From Naegleria gruberi (lineage: Eukaryota), in the NCBI GenBank assembly GCA_000004985.1, contig GG739153.1: a stretch of DNA of 6,227 nt. One strand, 5' to 3'. Below, one piece after another: positions 1 to 6,227 of the stretch (position 1 is its first letter; the number at the start of each line of letters is the position of its first letter). The notes beneath the pieces were generated by a model, which had not been told where the DNA came from, did not search any database, and saw only the letters and a program-made list of their open reading frames with translations. The translations under genes were made by a program, and so were the position numbers.

Positions 1-97
1 GAAATTCATCCAATAAGAGAAAAAGAAATATGAAAGAAAATGGATCAAAGAAAAGAAAAGTTCAACAATCACCAAAGAAATTAATTACTCTGATAAT

Positions 98-475
98 TTG
101 AAAGAAATACTTCAAGAATATGAAATTAATGGTAAAATTGCTACGAAAATAAGAAATGATGATAAGGTAGCTCTCTATTTTAAACTTGATAATGGGTTTT
201 TAAAGATAATTCACTATTTTGATAATAGTTCAGAGAATGTGAAAGGCATGCAAATTATCAAATCCATTCAGCATGACAATATTAATCAGATTTTTCAATT
301 TAAGAAACTGTCCATAACTAGCTCACAATTAGATGAATTGTTTTTTGAAAACATTTCAGTTACAACCAAATCAGAACCAACAATATTTGATAGAGGATGG
401 ATTATCGTTGAGAATAAATTTCAACACTTCCACATAGGTTCCACAACAGTCAATCACTCGAACAGTATTCAATAA
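98..475 (+). CDS. Protein-kinase-like domain, N-lobe segment (partial). Reading frame 2 is open from position 14, with no in-frame ATG before residue ~50.
   Basis: Seen in sequence: the translation contains KVALYFKL (beta3-like, with the Lys replaced), ENVKGMQIIKSIQHDNINQIF (alphaC / HPN-like region) and a beta4-beta5-like stretch. This fits the N-lobe of the kinase fold whose C-lobe follows at 535-1164. The frame ends at TAA 473-475. Confidence 0.6.
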   Translation: MKEILQEYEINGKIATKIRNDDKVALYFKLDNGFLKIIHYFDNSSENVKGMQIIKSIQHDNINQIFQFKKLSITSSQLDELFFENISVTTKSEPTIFDRGWIIVENKFQHFHIGSTTVNHSNSIQ

Positions 476-534
476 CATTTTCACAATTTGTTGGTGATAT
501 TATTACTTTCATTATTTACCTGAACCAAAAAGAT

Positions 535-1164
535 TTGAATACCAAATTATTATGTTTTATCAAGTTAATGATGGATGCTATTGAAGCAGTTAATATATTA
601 CATGAAAATAATATTATTCATTGTGATATTTCAATTAGAAATGTTGGCATGTTATTTACAAAACATGTCATGACATCATATGCCAAAGAAAAAAGCTCAA
701 TATTGGAAGCATTGCCAAATGTTTCAAACTGTAATTTCATTTTGATTGATTTCAATCATTGTAAAGTGGAAGGACAAGAACAAGCAACATTGAACATTTT
801 TCCAGAATGTAATTTTAAAAAAGAAAATATTTTCTTTCCATTTATATCAGAGGCATACTATCCTACAGATGAATTGGTTCAATTTACAAAAGAACATGAT
901 TATTATAGTATTGCTTTAGTTTTGTCACAATTATTTTTGGCAATTGTTTGTAATGTTTCAATTTCTGAAATATTTAAATGGGAAAATGGAAATTTAAAAG
1001 AATCAGTATTGAGCGAACTCAATAAGAAAATGAAGGAATTTAATAATTTTGATGTGATTATTCAATTGTTGAAGGATGTTATTGAGAATGAGGGTAAATC
1101 TGACATTTGCAATTTCACCAAAACATTCAATTTACTATATGAAAATGTTATTCAACCCAATTAA
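535..1164 (+). CDS. Protein-kinase-like domain, C-lobe (catalytic-loop, DFG-like and subdomain IX motifs). Likely a pseudokinase or atypical kinase. Reading frame 1 is actually open from position 418.
   Basis: Seen in sequence: LHENNIIHCDISIRNV corresponds to the HRDLKPEN catalytic loop, with Arg replaced by Cys and Lys replaced by Ser. ILIDFNHCK corresponds to DFG, present as DFN. IFPEC corresponds to APE. DYYSIALVLSQLF corresponds to DxWSxG (subdomain IX). TAA stop at 1162-1164. Confidence 0.7.
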   Translation: MNTKLLCFIKLMMDAIEAVNILHENNIIHCDISIRNVGMLFTKHVMTSYAKEKSSILEALPNVSNCNFILIDFNHCKVEGQEQATLNIFPECNFKKENIFFPFISEAYYPTDELVQFTKEHDYYSIALVLSQLFLAIVCNVSISEIFKWENGNLKESVLSELNKKMKEFNNFDVIIQLLKDVIENEGKSDICNFTKTFNLLYENVIQPN

Positions 1165-1236: not shown

Positions 1237-1242
1237 TTTATT
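1237..1242 (-). promoter_or_regulatory. AATAAA hexamer overlapping the TAA stop of the Rac-like gene; possible polyadenylation signal.
   Basis: The minus-strand sequence reads caATAAATAata. The hexamer overlaps the stop codon. Function is inferred only; such hexamers are common by chance in AT-rich DNA. Confidence 0.25.
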
Positions 1243-1303
1243 GAATGAAACATTTCTTCTTTTCATCATCAATTTCCGAATCAAATTGTGAATCTTCATC
1301 AGC
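1238..1303 (-). CDS. Probable last exon (3' end) of the same Rac-like GTPase: ...ADEDSQFDSEIDDEKKKCFIQ*, a basic patch plus CAAX box (CFIQ) followed by a TAA stop.
   Basis: Seen in sequence: the reverse-complement translation ends KKKCFIQ-TAA, i.e. Cys at position -4 followed by a stop. This is the hallmark prenylation signal of Rho/Ras GTPases. Same strand, downstream of exons 1-3 across the gap. Linkage to the same gene is inferred, not seen. Confidence 0.55.
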   Translation of the reverse strand, partial: ADEDSQFDSEIDDEKKKCFIQ

Positions 1304-2733: not shown

Positions 2734-2748
2734 CACTGAAAAACATAC

Positions 2749-2803
2749 CAAACAAAGAAGACATCAGTTCCTGGATATGAAAGAGGTCTCAATCTGTCAT
2801 AAT
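2749..2803 (-). CDS. Rac-like GTPase exon 3: (D)YDRLRPLSYPGTDVFFV plus TG of a Cys codon. It is followed by a GTATGT donor at 2748-2743 and then the assembly gap.
   Basis: DYDRLRPLSYPGTDVF matches the Rho-family consensus DYDRLRPLSYPQTDVF. Splicing at TG|GTATGT gives the conserved Cys of the FLICFS motif, whereas read-through gives VWYVFQ. The remainder of the gene must lie in the N-run. Confidence 0.8.
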
Positions 2804-2852
2804 CTAGTCAATTGTCAAATTGTCACAATTATTAACAACAATTTCAACATAC
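2804..2852 (-). other. Spliceosomal intron 2 of the Rac-like gene, 49 nt, GTATGT...TAG.
   Basis: Removing it joins G|AT to give Asp and restores DYDRLRPLSYP directly after WDTAGQE, exactly as in Rac1/Cdc42/RhoA. The unspliced read-through hits stops. Confidence 0.85.
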
Positions 2853-2919
2853 CTTCTTGACCAGCAGTATCCCACAATCCAACATTATAATTTCTATTTC
2901 CATATGTCACATTAGCACT
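2853..2919 (-). CDS. Rac-like GTPase exon 2: [22 protein letters not shown], plus the first nucleotide of an Asp codon.
   Basis: Switch II / G3 motif WDTAGQE. It aligns to Rac1 [22 protein letters not shown] at the same length. The exon ends in phase 1 at a GTATGT donor. Confidence 0.9.
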
Positions 2920-2956
2920 CTTCCGAAATCAATTTAACTGTCATCAAATTACTTAC
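2920..2956 (-). other. Spliceosomal intron 1 of the Rac-like gene, 37 nt, GTAAGT...AAG.
   Basis: Reading through shifts the frame and hits TAA. Removing these 37 nt joins DNY to SANV exactly as in Rac1 (DNYSANV). The donor is the canonical GTAAGT. Confidence 0.8.
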
Positions 2957-3079
2957 GTAATTGTCAAAAACTGTTGGAACATAATCTTCGGGAAATGAAT
3001 TTGTGGTGGAGGCAATCAAAAGACAACTCTTTCCGACGGCGCCATCACCAACAACTACCAATTTCAAGCTATTGTCCAT
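2957..3079 (-). CDS. Rac-like Rho-family small GTPase, exon 1 (ATG at 3079-3077): [41 protein letters not shown].
   Basis: Hand translation of the reverse complement. P-loop GDGAVGKS (G1), effector region YVPTVFDNY and TTNSFP align without gaps to Rac1 [36 protein letters not shown]. The exon ends in phase 0 at a GTAAGT donor. Confidence 0.9.
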
Positions 3080-3659
3080 TATTATGTACACGTTGATGTG
3101 AGTTTGTTATTTTTTTTTGATTTTGTTTTCAAAGTACCATTGAACAAGGAACTCTTACAAAAATTTGATTAATGATTACTTTATTCAGATTTAAGATCAT
3201 AATTAAAATTCAAAAACAACTTTATTGGTAGGATAGTTTGTAAACTTCAATTTCTTCAACTTTTGCATTTCAACAAACTTTAAAAAAAATAGTCAACATT
3301 CTTCTACTCTAGGAGGACATGATGATTTTCGGAGTGGTTTTACATCATGAAACTACCAAACTTTCACAGCATCACATCAACATCATCTAAATAGTAGTAA
3401 TAGTAATAATTGTTTTTGGTGGATTATCATCATCATTTTGGAATTTATTTTTCATGATGGAAAATCACATGTTGGTGTTTAATCATCCGATCATTCACCT
3501 ACCATCATCAATGTTGTTTTACATTAAAATAATAATAGTATTTGTGGAAATTAATTTTTAGCAATATAATTTTGGAGTCCTTCTGAGTTCCAAATTTCTT
3601 CCTTTGTGGTAACAATTAATCAAAACTCAAACAAAATACCTTTAACTCTTCATCATATT

Positions 3660-5144: not shown

Positions 5145-5870
5145 ATCAATTGGGACAGTAGCTTGGCAGATATTCCAATTATATAGATATTAATTTCTAC
5201 CACTCAAATACGTTATCAATATCAATTATAAGAGTAGTGGTATGATATTCTATCTTGTAGCACATCTTGATATTGACTTGTCATATTGCCATGAGTAATA
5301 GCTGACATGGTTGAATGACATGAATATTGAATGATGTCAAAATGATATGAAATTGATAGGAGCCTCATCATATGATGTTAATAACATATGGTATCAATTT
5401 GGTAATGAATCTCATTGTCCTTAGGGTACTTCCCTATTGAGGTACCTTAATTGACTATCTCAATATTTAATATTTAATATGATATTTATTTCAGTTCTAT
5501 CATGTTATATATGTAATTTGAAGCATTTTGATATCATTTTTGATATTTAAATATGATTTATTAGATATTATATACAGCTACTCTTAGTTTTTCAAAATTG
5601 ACTTTGAGATTCCCTAATTGACCATATATATATGACCAATTGATGAAACTAATATCAATCGACTAGATTTTCAATTGTGAACACAATGGTATCAATAGTT
5701 ATATGATTCATGATAGTTTAAAATTGAGTTGGTCATCGGTCATTAAGGTTTGAATGAATTGATATGAAATTCAATACCAATTATTGAAATACCATGATAA
5801 ATTGATCTATATATGATGCTATAATTGAAAGATTTGAAAATTAATATGACTTGATTATCTTGACATTTAT

Positions 5871-5892
5871 AGGGTTTGGGGGTTGGGGTTGG
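5871..5892 (+). repeat. Telomere-like G/T-rich block AGGGTTTGGGGGTTGGGGTTGG.
   Basis: Seen in sequence: G-runs of 3, 5, 4 and 2 separated by TT/TTT, embedded in otherwise AT-rich DNA. It shares its first 10 nt (AGGGTTTGGG) with the block at 6044. Confidence 0.6.
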
Positions 5893-6043
5893 ATTAGAGT
5901 TGTTTTGATTTGTTACTTCGGTGGCACCATGGTCTTTATGATCTAATATAGAGTCTTTAAGTGATCTTGGGCTTTTGGAAAGGTTTTTCAGTAAAGTTTT
6001 AAAAAAAGTATATAATTTCTATCTAGATATCGAGATTTGGTGT

Positions 6044-6068
6044 AGGGTTTGGGTTGGTGGGGTTTGGG
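6044..6068 (+). repeat. Second telomere-like G/T-rich block AGGGTTTGGGTTGGTGGGGTTTGGG; a canonical G4 motif (GGG-N3-GGG-N5-GGGG-N3-GGG).
   Basis: Seen in sequence: four G-runs of at least 3 nt with loops of 7 nt or less. It begins with the same AGGGTTTGGG as the first block, about 170 bp away. Confidence 0.6.
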
Positions 6069-6227
6069 TGAGTTTTATACACTTTCATACAATAGAGTGA
6101 TATTGAAATGTACCCTTTGATATTTCTGGATGGGTAGTATGATTTGGTGATGATTCCGACAATAAAAATCATATATTGTTCATATAATTATCAAGATATT
6201 GTATAATTTATTAAATATAAAGTGGGT

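What the first reader, a model, noticed from the sequence alone, without database searches (positions are those of the whole stretch)
14..1164. Kinase-like gene with N-lobe and C-lobe in different frames: unspliced intron, or frameshifted pseudokinase
Frame 2 (open 14-475) encodes an N-lobe-like segment. Frame 1 (open 418-1164) encodes a clear C-lobe with HCD..N catalytic loop, DFN and subdomain IX. The 58-nt overlap and a -1 frame change need either a 1-nt indel or an intron of length 2 mod 3. An in-phase candidate intron exists at 465-532 (68 nt, GTATTC...AAAAAG), and a second at 438-532 (95 nt, GTTCCA...AG). Separately, the catalytic motifs are degenerate. There is no GxGxxG. The beta3 Lys appears replaced by Tyr (VALY). 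HRD is replaced by HCD. The catalytic-loop Lys is replaced by Ser. DFG is replaced by DFN. This is typical of pseudokinases. No in-frame ATG precedes the N-lobe inside the window. An ATG at 30 lies in a third frame (MKENGSKKRKVQQSPKKL...), so the 5' end may also be split or decayed.
Basis: partly seen in the sequence, partly recalled or inferred. Interest (0 to 1): 0.5.

Follow-up and report, generated by a model that had tools for sequence, protein, structure and literature searches.

The report
Interrupted orphan kinase-like gene in Naegleria
The two reading frames belong to one divergent protein-kinase-like gene of the amoeba Naegleria gruberi that is broken by an 83-base extra segment and a missing base, so it is most likely a recently disabled or poorly sequenced gene rather than anything unusual.

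Summary
The window is a whole 6.2-kb, gap-ridden scaffold of Naegleria gruberi. The frame pattern is real: frame 2 is open 17-472 and frame 1 is open 418-1161.

An 88%-identical environmental contig (L001) locates both frame changes:
- The window lacks 1 nt at 61/62, which gives the frame 3 to 2 change.
- The window carries 83 extra nt at 390-472, which gives the frame 2 to 1 change.

Removing exactly 390-472 gives EPTIF|VTFSQFVGD. L001 reads this colinearly, and a distant intact homologue (P0122, 562 aa) aligns across it without a gap. The segment ends AT..AA, not GT..AG.

Bases 473-532 are conserved coding sequence (90% identity; dN/dS 0.12 over 475-570).

Kinase homology is real but remote: all Pfam hits are below threshold, while hhalign gives 92-95%. 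The catalytic Lys, Asp, Asn and DFx Asp are all present, and the Lys-to-Asp spacing is the canonical 94 residues. Only the Gly loop and the DFG glycine are degenerate, so the standard pseudokinase criterion is not met.

dN/dS of 0.23 shows the protein was under selection until recently. L001 has its own 10-nt frameshift.

Best reading: a recently disabled copy, partly perhaps mis-sequenced, of an orphan kinase-like gene. A non-canonical or cryptic intron is not excluded. Interest is low.

The parts
3..61 (+). Upstream coding part in frame 3, a Lys/Arg-rich linker (NSSNKRKRNMKENGSKKRKV). It runs off the scaffold start, so the gene is 5'-truncated by the assembly. ATG30 is internal (Met versus Thr in L001).
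   Evidence: Frame 3 is open 3-98. It aligns to in-frame coding sequence of L001 at 77% nt identity, and the L001 ORF continues about 70 codons further upstream. dN/dS is 0.89, so constraint is weak.
61..62 (+). Site of a 1-nt deficit relative to L001 (window AAAAGT-TCAAC, L001 AAAAGTATCAAC). This causes the frame 3 to frame 2 change.
   Evidence: DNA alignment A1. It lies 61 nt from the end of a 1.3-kb contig, so a sequencing error cannot be excluded (inference).
62..389 (+). N-lobe coding segment in frame 2: degenerate Gly loop LDNGFLK, beta3 QIIKSIQ, a 22-residue insert, and the first half of beta5 (EPTIF).
   Evidence: 90% nt identity to L001 with dN/dS 0.29. Aligns to P0122. With 390-472 removed, PK_Tyr_Ser-Thr aligns residues 85-187 to profile positions 32-133.
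260..262 (+). Putative beta3 (VAIK) lysine, K87 of the reconstructed protein.
   Evidence: Invariant in the window, L001 and P0122. It lies 94 residues before the catalytic Asp. The Pfam and low-confidence hhalign register agree.
390..472 (+). 83-nt extra segment (ATAGAGG...GTATTCAA) that causes the frame 2 to frame 1 change. It is absent from L001 and has no counterpart in P0122. Its ends are AT..AA.
   Evidence: GC is 36% against 26% in the flanks, and there is no copy elsewhere in the window or the fetched loci. RNA fold z-score is -0.47. It is open in frame 2 and also on the reverse strand. No Pfam match.
407..465 (+). The only canonical GT..AG pair of the right phase inside the extra segment (59 nt, GTTGAG...AACAG). 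Using it would give EPTIFDRGWII|YSITFSQ, which adds 8 residues relative to the relatives. It is a possible cryptic intron and is unproven.
   Evidence: Enumerated by eye from the sequence. The neighbouring Rho GTPase gene has introns of 37 and 49 nt beginning GTAAGT and GTATGT.
473..1164 (+). Hinge, alphaD and C-lobe coding segment in frame 1, with the stop at 1162-1164. G389 plus TA473-474 forms the junction codon GTA (Val) once 390-472 is removed.
   Evidence: (dN/dS 0.12 and 0.23).
619..642 (+). Catalytic loop HCDISIRN, with the Asp at 625-627 and the Asn at 640-642.
   Evidence: hhalign aligns it to HCDIKPEN / HRDLKPxN of ordinary kinases. In the PDB searches, 15 of 15 hits (single sequence) and 47 of 48 hits (profile) are kinases, aligned at this loop where alignments were shown.
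748..756 (+). DFN, the DFG-equivalent with the Asp retained. It lies 41 residues after the catalytic Asp, a 23-residue insert relative to my recollection of PKA.
   Evidence: (invariant D-F-N).
1062..1133 (-). Antisense stretch used as the last exon (KLNVLVKLQMSDLPSFSITSFNN*) of the public Rho GTPase gene model. This is an annotation artefact overlapping the kinase-like ORF.

Best explanation
The region is a single gene for a very divergent, lineage-restricted protein-kinase-like protein of Naegleria gruberi. Its 5' end is cut off by the scaffold end.

Relative to the intact state of the family, it carries two lesions. One base is missing at 61/62. An 83-nt lineage-specific segment is inserted at 390-472, in the middle of the beta5 strand.

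The segment has AT..AA ends, so canonical splicing cannot remove it exactly. As assembled, translation from the N-lobe frame stops at 473-475, and the C-lobe can only be read in another frame.

I therefore read it as a recently disabled gene (a young pseudogene or null allele). The 1-nt lesion may instead be an error of a low-coverage Sanger contig.

Shown:
- the position and size of both lesions;
- kinase homology;
- retention of the catalytic residues;
- purifying selection in the past.

Inferred:
- that the segment is an insertion rather than an intron;
- that no full-length protein is made.

The ancestral protein most likely bound ATP and transferred phosphate through K87, D181, N186 and D222, with an atypical Gly loop and an enlarged segment between the catalytic loop and DFN.
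For: - Organism and assembly: a 100% match to an annotated N. gruberi Rho GTPase whose contig is 6227 bp long. The scaffold is three contigs of about 1.3, 0.9 and 1.1 kb separated by N runs.
- Lesions: the window-versus-L001 DNA alignment shows exactly three indels, at 61/62 (1 nt), 390-472 (83 nt) and 572-581 (10 nt, missing in L001). Removing 390-472 and restoring 1 nt gives one 359-codon ORF.
- The L001 ORF reads EPTIFVTFSQFVGD colinearly.
- The intact 562-aa P0122 aligns across the junction without a gap. L002, which carries it, looks genomic because a convergent ORF ends about 30 nt downstream.
- Among four junction models, the 83-nt-excised one gives the longest and best PK_Tyr_Ser-Thr alignment (residues 85-187 to profile 32-133, E 0.0015, against 0.06-0.8 for the others).
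- The K87-D181 spacing is 94 residues.
- The boundaries cannot be slid without adding mismatches to L001, and they are AT..AA.
- Past constraint: dN/dS is 0.23 in the kinase frames against 0.7-1.05 in out-of-frame controls.
- Equal numbers of derived residues in the window and L001 lineages, 7 against 8. The lesions are therefore young.
- No intact paralogue or identical protein exists among 15 billion predicted proteins, including the N. gruberi proteome.
- Kinase homology: hhalign 92-95%.
Against: - dN/dS of 0.23 and the absence of any in-frame stop in 340 codons would also fit a gene that is still functional. That would require the 83 nt to be removed from the mRNA and the 1-nt deficit to be an error.
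- The segment's length (83 nt, 2 mod 3) restores the frame exactly when excised, as a true intron would.
- Its ends differ from GT..AG only by G to A at the first and last base.
- The segment contains one in-phase GT..AG pair (407-465).
- It is unknown whether L001 derives from DNA or RNA. If it derives from RNA, the absence of the segment would be direct evidence of splicing in a relative.
- No reads or transcripts of N. gruberi were available.
Confidence: 0.55

Rival explanations
1. The 83-nt segment, or part of it, is a real intron and the gene is functional. Either it is a non-canonical AT..AA intron removed exactly (389|473), or the cryptic canonical pair 407-465 (GTTGAG..AACAG, 59 nt) is used, giving a protein with 8 extra residues in the beta4-beta5 hairpin. 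The 1-nt deficit at 61/62 would then be a sequencing error near the contig end.
For: - Exact excision restores the frame and reproduces the protein junction of L001 and P0122.
- dN/dS is 0.23, there are no internal stops, and amino-acid rates are symmetric in the two lineages.
- The length is close to the 37- and 49-nt introns of the neighbouring gene.
- Position 61/62 lies at the extreme end of a short contig.
Against: - There is no GT or AG at the boundaries, and the boundaries cannot be slid.
- The 5' end ATAGAGGA does not resemble the U12 consensus ATATCCTT (my knowledge).
- GTTGAG differs from the GTAAGT and GTATGT seen next door.
- The 8-residue insertion has no counterpart in L001 or P0122.
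- The segment's GC is higher than that of the exons (36% against 26%).
- No RNA structure brings the ends together (z -0.47).
- P0122, which lies on a genomic-looking contig, has no intron here.
Confidence: 0.27
2. The frame changes are artefacts of a low-coverage Sanger assembly (base-calling indels, a chimeric or mis-joined read), and the real locus is intact.
For: - The scaffold consists of three contigs of read-like length with estimated gaps.
- The 1-nt difference lies 61 nt from the contig end.
- The public gene model on this scaffold is itself an artefact spanning a gap.
Against: - An 83-nt insertion of unique, genome-like sequence is not a base-calling error.
- It has no copy elsewhere in the scaffold that could have been mis-joined.
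- The Illumina-assembled relative L001 also carries a frame-breaking indel of 10 nt, so real lesions occur in this family.
Confidence: 0.12
3. One reading: an unspliced GT..AG intron at 465-532 (68 nt) or 438-532 (95 nt) joins the lobes.
For: Both candidates have GT..AG ends and the right phase. The 68-nt model gives a plausible hinge-to-HCD spacing.
Against: - Bases 473-532 are 90% identical to L001 and lie inside its ORF. dN/dS over 475-570 is 0.12.
- They encode VTFSQFVGDIITFIIYLNQKD. This aligns to P0122 and to the alphaD region of a solved kinase, 6vvg (GDLFDFV).
- Pfam alignments are worse for both models than for the 390-472 model.
Confidence: 0.02
4. Programmed -1 ribosomal frameshifting in the 418-475 overlap fuses the two frames.
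For: The two frame changes, 3 to 2 and 2 to 1, go in the same direction.
Against: - There is no X XXY YYZ slippery heptamer in 418-472 in the frame-2 register (read).
- No significant RNA structure was found in the 83-nt segment, the only stretch folded here.
- The relatives encode the junction colinearly without the segment.
- The fused product would carry 28 extra residues inside beta5.
Confidence: 0.01

Closest known systems
Eukaryotic protein kinase (ePK) catalytic domain, Pfam clan of Pkinase / PK_Tyr_Ser-Thr, closest in loop style to the Tyr/TKL-like group
   Same: - Order and spacing of the beta3 Lys, HxD Asp, Asn at +5, DFx Asp, an APE-like YPTD and the subdomain IX Asp (HDYYS).
- Lys-to-Asp distance of 94 residues.
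- hhalign probability of 92-95% over the catalytic loop to subdomain IX.
- The catalytic loop HCDISIRN has Arg-Asn as in HRDLAARN (my knowledge).
   Different: - Below the gathering score of every Pfam kinase model.
- The Gly loop is reduced to one Gly.
- DFN replaces DFG.
- A 22-residue insert lies before beta5 and a 23-residue insert lies between the catalytic loop and DFN.
- Only two relatives exist among 15 billion proteins.
- The fold could not be confirmed by prediction.
Pseudokinases (kinase-fold proteins lacking the VAIK Lys, the HRD Asp or the DFG Asp)
   Same: Degenerate Gly-rich loop and altered DFG glycine. Very divergent sequence.
   Different: All three residues used to define pseudokinases are present and conserved in the three family members. 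The standard criterion is therefore not met.
Young unitary pseudogene or null allele (a gene disabled by indels)
   Same: Two frame-disrupting lesions relative to close and distant relatives. A premature stop follows directly after the insertion. No annotated product exists.
   Different: The substitution pattern still shows purifying selection (dN/dS 0.23), and no nonsense substitutions have accumulated. Inactivation, if real, is very recent.
Short spliceosomal introns of Naegleria (the 37- and 49-nt GT..AG introns in the neighbouring Rho GTPase gene)
   Same: Similar size range. Removal restores the reading frame.
   Different: The ends are AT..AA instead of GT..AG. GC is higher than in the exons. 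The segment is absent from both relatives.

Membership tests
Protein kinase superfamily (ePK-like) | Match to Pkinase / PK_Tyr_Ser-Thr profile at or above the curated score | tested here: not met
   Best scores are 18.3 bits (cut-off 23.1), 15.3 bits (cut-off 31.7) and 20 bits (cut-off 24.1, Pkinase_fungal).
Protein kinase superfamily (ePK-like) | Remote homology of the catalytic core by profile-profile comparison | tested here: met
   hhalign of the family alignment against a small kinase alignment gives probability 92-95% and E 5e-7 to 3e-8, with HCD aligned to HRD/HCD, DFN to DFG, and HDYYS to the subdomain IX Asp. 47 of 48 weak PDB hits are kinases.
Protein kinase superfamily (ePK-like) | Beta3 Lys, catalytic-loop Asp and Asn, DFG Asp | tested here: met
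   K87 (260-262), D181 (625-627), N186 (640-642) and D222 (748-750) are invariant in the window, L001 and P0122. The K-D spacing is 94. The Lys assignment rests on weak alignments.
Protein kinase superfamily (ePK-like) | Gly-rich loop GxGxxG | tested here: not met
   The window has LDNGFLK. The aligned stretch of P0122 has no GxGxxG either.
Protein kinase superfamily (ePK-like) | Bilobal kinase fold | tested here: inconclusive
   AlphaFold2 models had mean pLDDT 34 (P0122) and 44 (window C-lobe). Foldseek found nothing below E 3.
Protein kinase superfamily (ePK-like) | Phosphotransfer activity | not testable with these tools
   Needs recombinant protein.
Pseudokinase | Loss of at least one of the VAIK Lys, HRD Asp or DFG Asp | tested here: not met
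   All three are present and conserved.
U2-type spliceosomal intron (segment 390-472) | GT (or GC) at the 5' end and AG at the 3' end | tested here: not met
   The ends are AT and AA. Sliding the boundaries by a base or two adds mismatches to L001 and still gives no GT..AG.
U2-type spliceosomal intron (segment 390-472) | Removal restores a continuous, homologous reading frame | tested here: met
   Removal gives EPTIF|VTFSQFVGD, identical to L001 and aligned to P0122.
U2-type spliceosomal intron (segment 390-472) | Absent from mature mRNA | not testable with these tools
   No N. gruberi transcripts were available. The source type (DNA or RNA) of L001 is unknown.
   Bases 473-532 are 90% identical to L001 and retained in its ORF. 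dN/dS over 475-570 is 0.12. The stretch aligns to P0122.
U12-type intron (AT-AC and variants) | 5' splice site ATATCCTT and a branch site near the 3' end | tested here: not met
   The 5' end is ATAGAGGA. The consensus is from my knowledge. The literature search gave no statement on a minor spliceosome in Naegleria.
Pseudogene | Frame-disrupting lesions relative to functional relatives | tested here: met
   A 1-nt deficit and an 83-nt insertion.
Pseudogene | Relaxed selection (dN/dS near 1) | tested here: not met
   dN/dS is 0.23 against out-of-frame controls of 0.7-1.05. Only a very recent inactivation is compatible.
Programmed -1 frameshift site | Slippery heptamer X XXY YYZ in the overlap, followed by a structure | tested here: not met
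   No slippery heptamer was seen by eye in 418-472. The only fold run, of the 83-nt segment itself, was not significant.

The most novel reading that the evidence does not exclude
The 83-nt segment is a genuine, recently gained spliceosomal intron of Naegleria gruberi with non-canonical AT..AA termini, or one gained by insertion and spliced through an internal cryptic GT..AG. It sits in a still-functional member of a previously undescribed, Naegleria-restricted kinase family that keeps all catalytic residues.
Probability: 0.12. Interest if true: 0.5.

Novelty: new member of a known kind. Interest (0 to 1): 0.2.

Why it matters
The finding mostly matters as housekeeping.
- It identifies an unannotated, very divergent kinase-like gene in N. 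gruberi.
- It shows that the public Rho GTPase model on this scaffold borrows an antisense piece of that gene.
- It corrects the proposed gene structure.

The family has only three known sequences and falls below all Pfam kinase thresholds, yet keeps the catalytic residues. It is a small addition to the catalogue of atypical kinases.

If the 83-nt segment turned out to be spliced, it would be a dated example of intron gain, or of a non-canonical intron, in a heterolobosean. That would be of moderate interest to people studying intron evolution.

Tried and rejected
- **Word-index searches:** the search with the C-lobe found nothing. The search with the three-sequence profile found only the two known relatives.
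- **Locating the scaffold in the assembly index:** the exact look-up of the annotated Rho GTPase protein P0001 found no gene on record.
- **Cluster look-up of the two relatives:** each is the only member of its cluster and carries no source name.
- **Metagenome scan:** it returned only an ordinary CAMK-like kinase, L003, which is not a family member.
- **Viral-contig scan:** nothing found.
- **Structure prediction:** P0122 gave pLDDT 34 and the window C-lobe gave pLDDT 44. Both were too poor to use, and the Foldseek PDB search on the latter gave only E>3 noise.
- **Rfam on the whole window:** no match.
- **RNA folding of the 83-nt segment:** not different from shuffles. This gives no support for a structured or Euglena-like non-conventional intron.
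- **Origin of the segment:** BLAST against the rest of the window and the fetched loci found only chance words. Pfam on its two open translations found nothing.
- **Direct repeat at the segment ends:** AACAATATTTGA at 379-390 against AACAGTATTCAA at 461-472 match at 9 of 12 positions, read by eye. The offset is 82, not 83, so this was not pursued as a target-site duplication.
- **N-terminal comparison:** the N-terminal region of L001 shows no significant similarity to P0122. The in-frame TAG in L001 therefore cannot be called a nonsense mutation.
- **Literature searches:** PRJEB11402 gave no paper, so the source type of L001 stays unknown. The N. gruberi kinome search turned up nothing about this gene. 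Searches on Naegleria splice sites and the minor spliceosome gave nothing decisive.
- **Rejected after consideration:** a ciliate-type genetic code or Euplotes-type +1 frameshifting. The shift is in the wrong direction, the ORFs contain no in-frame TAA or TAG, and the organism is Naegleria.
Full report
**What the window is.** The sequence is AT-rich (about 27% GC). It consists of three short contigs (1-1303, 2734-3659, 5145-6227) separated by two runs of N. On the minus strand at 2751-3079 lies the 5' part of a Rho/Rac GTPase gene with two short GT..AG introns (Pfam Ras, E 1e-26). Its joined exons are 100% identical to a protein annotated as 'rho family small GTPase [Naegleria gruberi]', whose longest contig is 6227 bp. 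The window is therefore an entire small scaffold of the N. gruberi assembly. The N runs look like scaffold gaps, and each contig is only about one or two Sanger reads long. That last point is my inference from contig sizes and from my recollection that this genome was Sanger-sequenced.

**Checking the observation.**
- Frame 2 is open from 17 to 472, with TAA at 14-16 and at 473-475.
- Frame 1 is open from 418 to 1161, with its stop at 1162-1164.
- The ATG at 30 is in frame 3, which is open from the scaffold start to a stop at 99-101.
- There are thus two successive frame changes in the same direction, 3 to 2 and then 2 to 1.
- A 248-codon open run is far outside what shuffled sequence gives (maximum 127 in 2000 shuffles).

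Support from standard profiles is weak. All Pfam kinase models score below their gathering thresholds, and the N-lobe piece alone matches none.

**Relatives.** A word-index search with the C-lobe found nothing. An exhaustive phmmer search of 1.84 billion representative proteins with the frame-1 ORF found only two proteins:
- P0121 is 245 aa and lies on L001, a 1128-nt contig of an ENA metagenome assembly.
- P0122 is 562 aa and is 27% identical over the C-lobe. It is an intact ORF on L002, a 2.8-kb Logan contig. L002 looks genomic, because a convergent ORF ends about 30 nt downstream.

A profile search with all three sequences found no further members. A JGI metagenome scan returned only an ordinary CAMK-like kinase, and a viral scan returned nothing. 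This is therefore an orphan family. No protein matching the window's gene exists in the collection, which does hold at least one N. gruberi protein from NCBI, UniRef and EukProt (P0001).

**Where the frames change.** L001 is 88% identical to the window over 679 aligned bases. It differs by exactly three indels.
1. The window lacks one base at 61/62 (AAAAGT-TCAAC against AAAAGTATCAAC). Restoring it joins the frame-3 stretch ...KKRKV to the frame-2 stretch STITKEINY..., as in the L001 ORF. The L001 ORF continues about 70 codons further upstream, and the window's frame 3 is open to the scaffold edge. The gene is therefore truncated by the scaffold end, and ATG30 (Thr in L001) is not a conserved start.
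2. The window has 83 extra bases at 390-472. L001 reads EPTIF|VTFSQFVGD straight through. Deleting exactly 390-472 from the window gives the same junction (G389 + TA473-474 = Val) and puts the C-lobe in frame. With both corrections the region is a single ORF of 359 codons.
3. L001 itself lacks 10 bases (window 572-581). This throws its called ORF out of the kinase frame, which nevertheless stays open to the contig end.

Both candidates (465-532 and 438-532) would remove 473-532.
- That stretch is 90% identical to L001 and lies inside its ORF. dN/dS over 475-570 is 0.12.
- It encodes VTFSQFVGDIITFIIYLNQKD.
- This aligns to P0122 and to the hinge/alphaD region of a solved kinase (6vvg: SDGDLFDFVKMNDTREL).
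- Pfam alignments for the two reader models are poorer than for the 390-472 model. In that model PK_Tyr_Ser-Thr aligns residues 85-187 to profile positions 32-133 without a large gap (E 0.0015 against 0.06-0.8).

**What the 83-nt segment is.**
- P0122 aligns across the junction without a gap (SPTV-IWYDYF against EPTIFVTFSQF). The segment is therefore not ancestral coding sequence. It interrupts what is most likely strand beta5.
- Its ends are AT..AA. Shifting the boundaries by a base or two adds mismatches to L001 and still gives no GT..AG.
- It does not resemble the U12 5' consensus (my knowledge).
- It has no significant RNA structure (z -0.47).
- No copy exists elsewhere in the scaffold or the fetched loci.
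- Its GC is higher than that of the flanking exons, 36% against 26%.
- It has open frames on both strands but no Pfam match.
- The only in-phase canonical GT..AG pair inside it is 407-465 (59 nt, GTTGAG..AACAG). Using it would leave 8 extra residues that neither relative has.
- There is no slippery heptamer for -1 frameshifting.

On this evidence the segment is best read as a lineage-specific insertion. An intron, either non-canonical or cryptic, cannot be excluded without RNA data.

**Selection.** Nei-Gojobori dN/dS between the window and L001 is 0.29 for the N-lobe, 0.12 for 475-570 and 0.23 for 583-771, or 0.23 combined. The same alignment read out of frame gives 0.7-1.05. The Lys-rich upstream linker gives 0.89. 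With P0122 as reference, the window and L001 have 7 and 8 derived residues respectively. Both reading frames were therefore under purifying selection for most of the divergence. Any inactivation, whether by the window's two lesions or by L001's 10-nt deletion, is recent, or else is bypassed or artefactual.

**Is it a kinase, and is it a pseudokinase?**
- Profile-profile comparison of the three-sequence family alignment with a small kinase alignment gives 92-95% probability (E 5e-7 to 3e-8) from the catalytic loop to subdomain IX. HCD, DFN and HDYYS align to HRD/HCD, DFG and the subdomain IX Asp.
- 47 of 48 weak PDB profile hits are protein kinases.
- The N-lobe register is less secure, but Pfam and hhalign agree in placing beta3 at QIIKSIQ. 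That Lys (K87, 260-262) is invariant in the family and lies 94 residues before the catalytic Asp (D181), the distance I recall for PKA and CDK2.
- K87, D181, N186 and D222 are all present. Only the Gly loop (LDNGFLK) and the DFG glycine are degenerate.
- HCD also occurs in an ordinary kinase (L003). The loop HCDISIRN resembles Tyr/TKL-type HRDLAARN (my knowledge).
- By the usual definition this is not a pseudokinase.
- Structure prediction failed for lack of alignment depth (pLDDT 34 and 44), and the fold search was noise.

**Annotation artefact.** The public Rho GTPase model (105 aa) ends in KLNVLVKLQMSDLPSFSITSFNN. That peptide is encoded at 1062-1133 on the minus strand, antisense to the kinase-like ORF, and is reached by a modelled intron spanning the first N run. 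This probably explains why the kinase-like gene has no model. The minus-strand ORF ending at 1238 (...DDEKKKCFIQ*) looks like a polybasic CAAX tail. It may be the real end of the GTPase, though that is only my inference.

**Verdict.** It is wrong in its coordinates and in the pseudokinase call.

| Reading | Confidence |
|---|---|
| Recently disabled, 5'-truncated copy of an orphan kinase-like gene, with the 1-nt lesion possibly a sequencing error | about 0.55 |
| A real but unusual intron | about 0.27 |
| An assembly artefact | about 0.12 |

The result is ordinary and of low interest. RNA evidence of splicing at 389|473 would raise it.

Noticed in passing
window 1062-1133 (minus strand): The public N. 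gruberi 'rho family small GTPase' model (P0001, 105 aa) takes its last exon from the antisense strand of the kinase-like ORF. The exon is reached by a modelled intron that spans the 1430-nt N run. This looks like a gene-model artefact.
   Followed up: yes
window 1238-1303 (minus strand): An ORF running out of the N gap ends ...ADEDSQFDSEIDDEKKKCFIQ*, a polybasic stretch followed by a CAAX-like box. It may be the true C-terminus of the Rho GTPase whose 5' exons lie at 2751-3079.
   Followed up: partly
window 5872-5892 and 6045-6070: Two similar G-rich tracts (TAGGGTTTGGGGGTTGGGGTTGG and TAGGGTTTGGGTTGGTGGGGTTTGGGTG) about 170 nt apart in otherwise AT-rich non-coding sequence. They look telomere-repeat-like or G-quadruplex-prone.
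   Followed up: no
L001 247-249, and the gap opposite window 572-581: The environmental relative has its own 10-nt deletion that frameshifts the kinase frame, although that frame stays open to the contig end. It also has an in-frame TAG separating an 82-codon upstream ORF from the main ORF. Different frame-breaking lesions in two close relatives suggest the gene is being lost repeatedly.
   Followed up: partly
L002 782-2470: P0122, the only distant homologue, is an intact 562-aa ORF. It has a roughly 200-residue N-terminal extension with no Pfam match and no significant similarity to the L001 upstream region. The organism of SRR25266757 is unknown.
   Followed up: partly
window 390-472 (reverse strand): The 83-nt extra segment is also fully open on the reverse strand (LNTVRVIDCCGTYVEVLKFILNDNPSS), and its GC is 36% against 26% in the flanks. 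It could be a captured fragment of another gene.
   Followed up: partly
window 2743-2750 (minus strand, next to the N run): After ...GTDVFFV the Rho GTPase sequence reads TG|GTATGTTTTTCAGTG before the gap. Either a third short intron starts here, or the coding sequence continues (FVW...). The gap prevents a decision.
   Followed up: no
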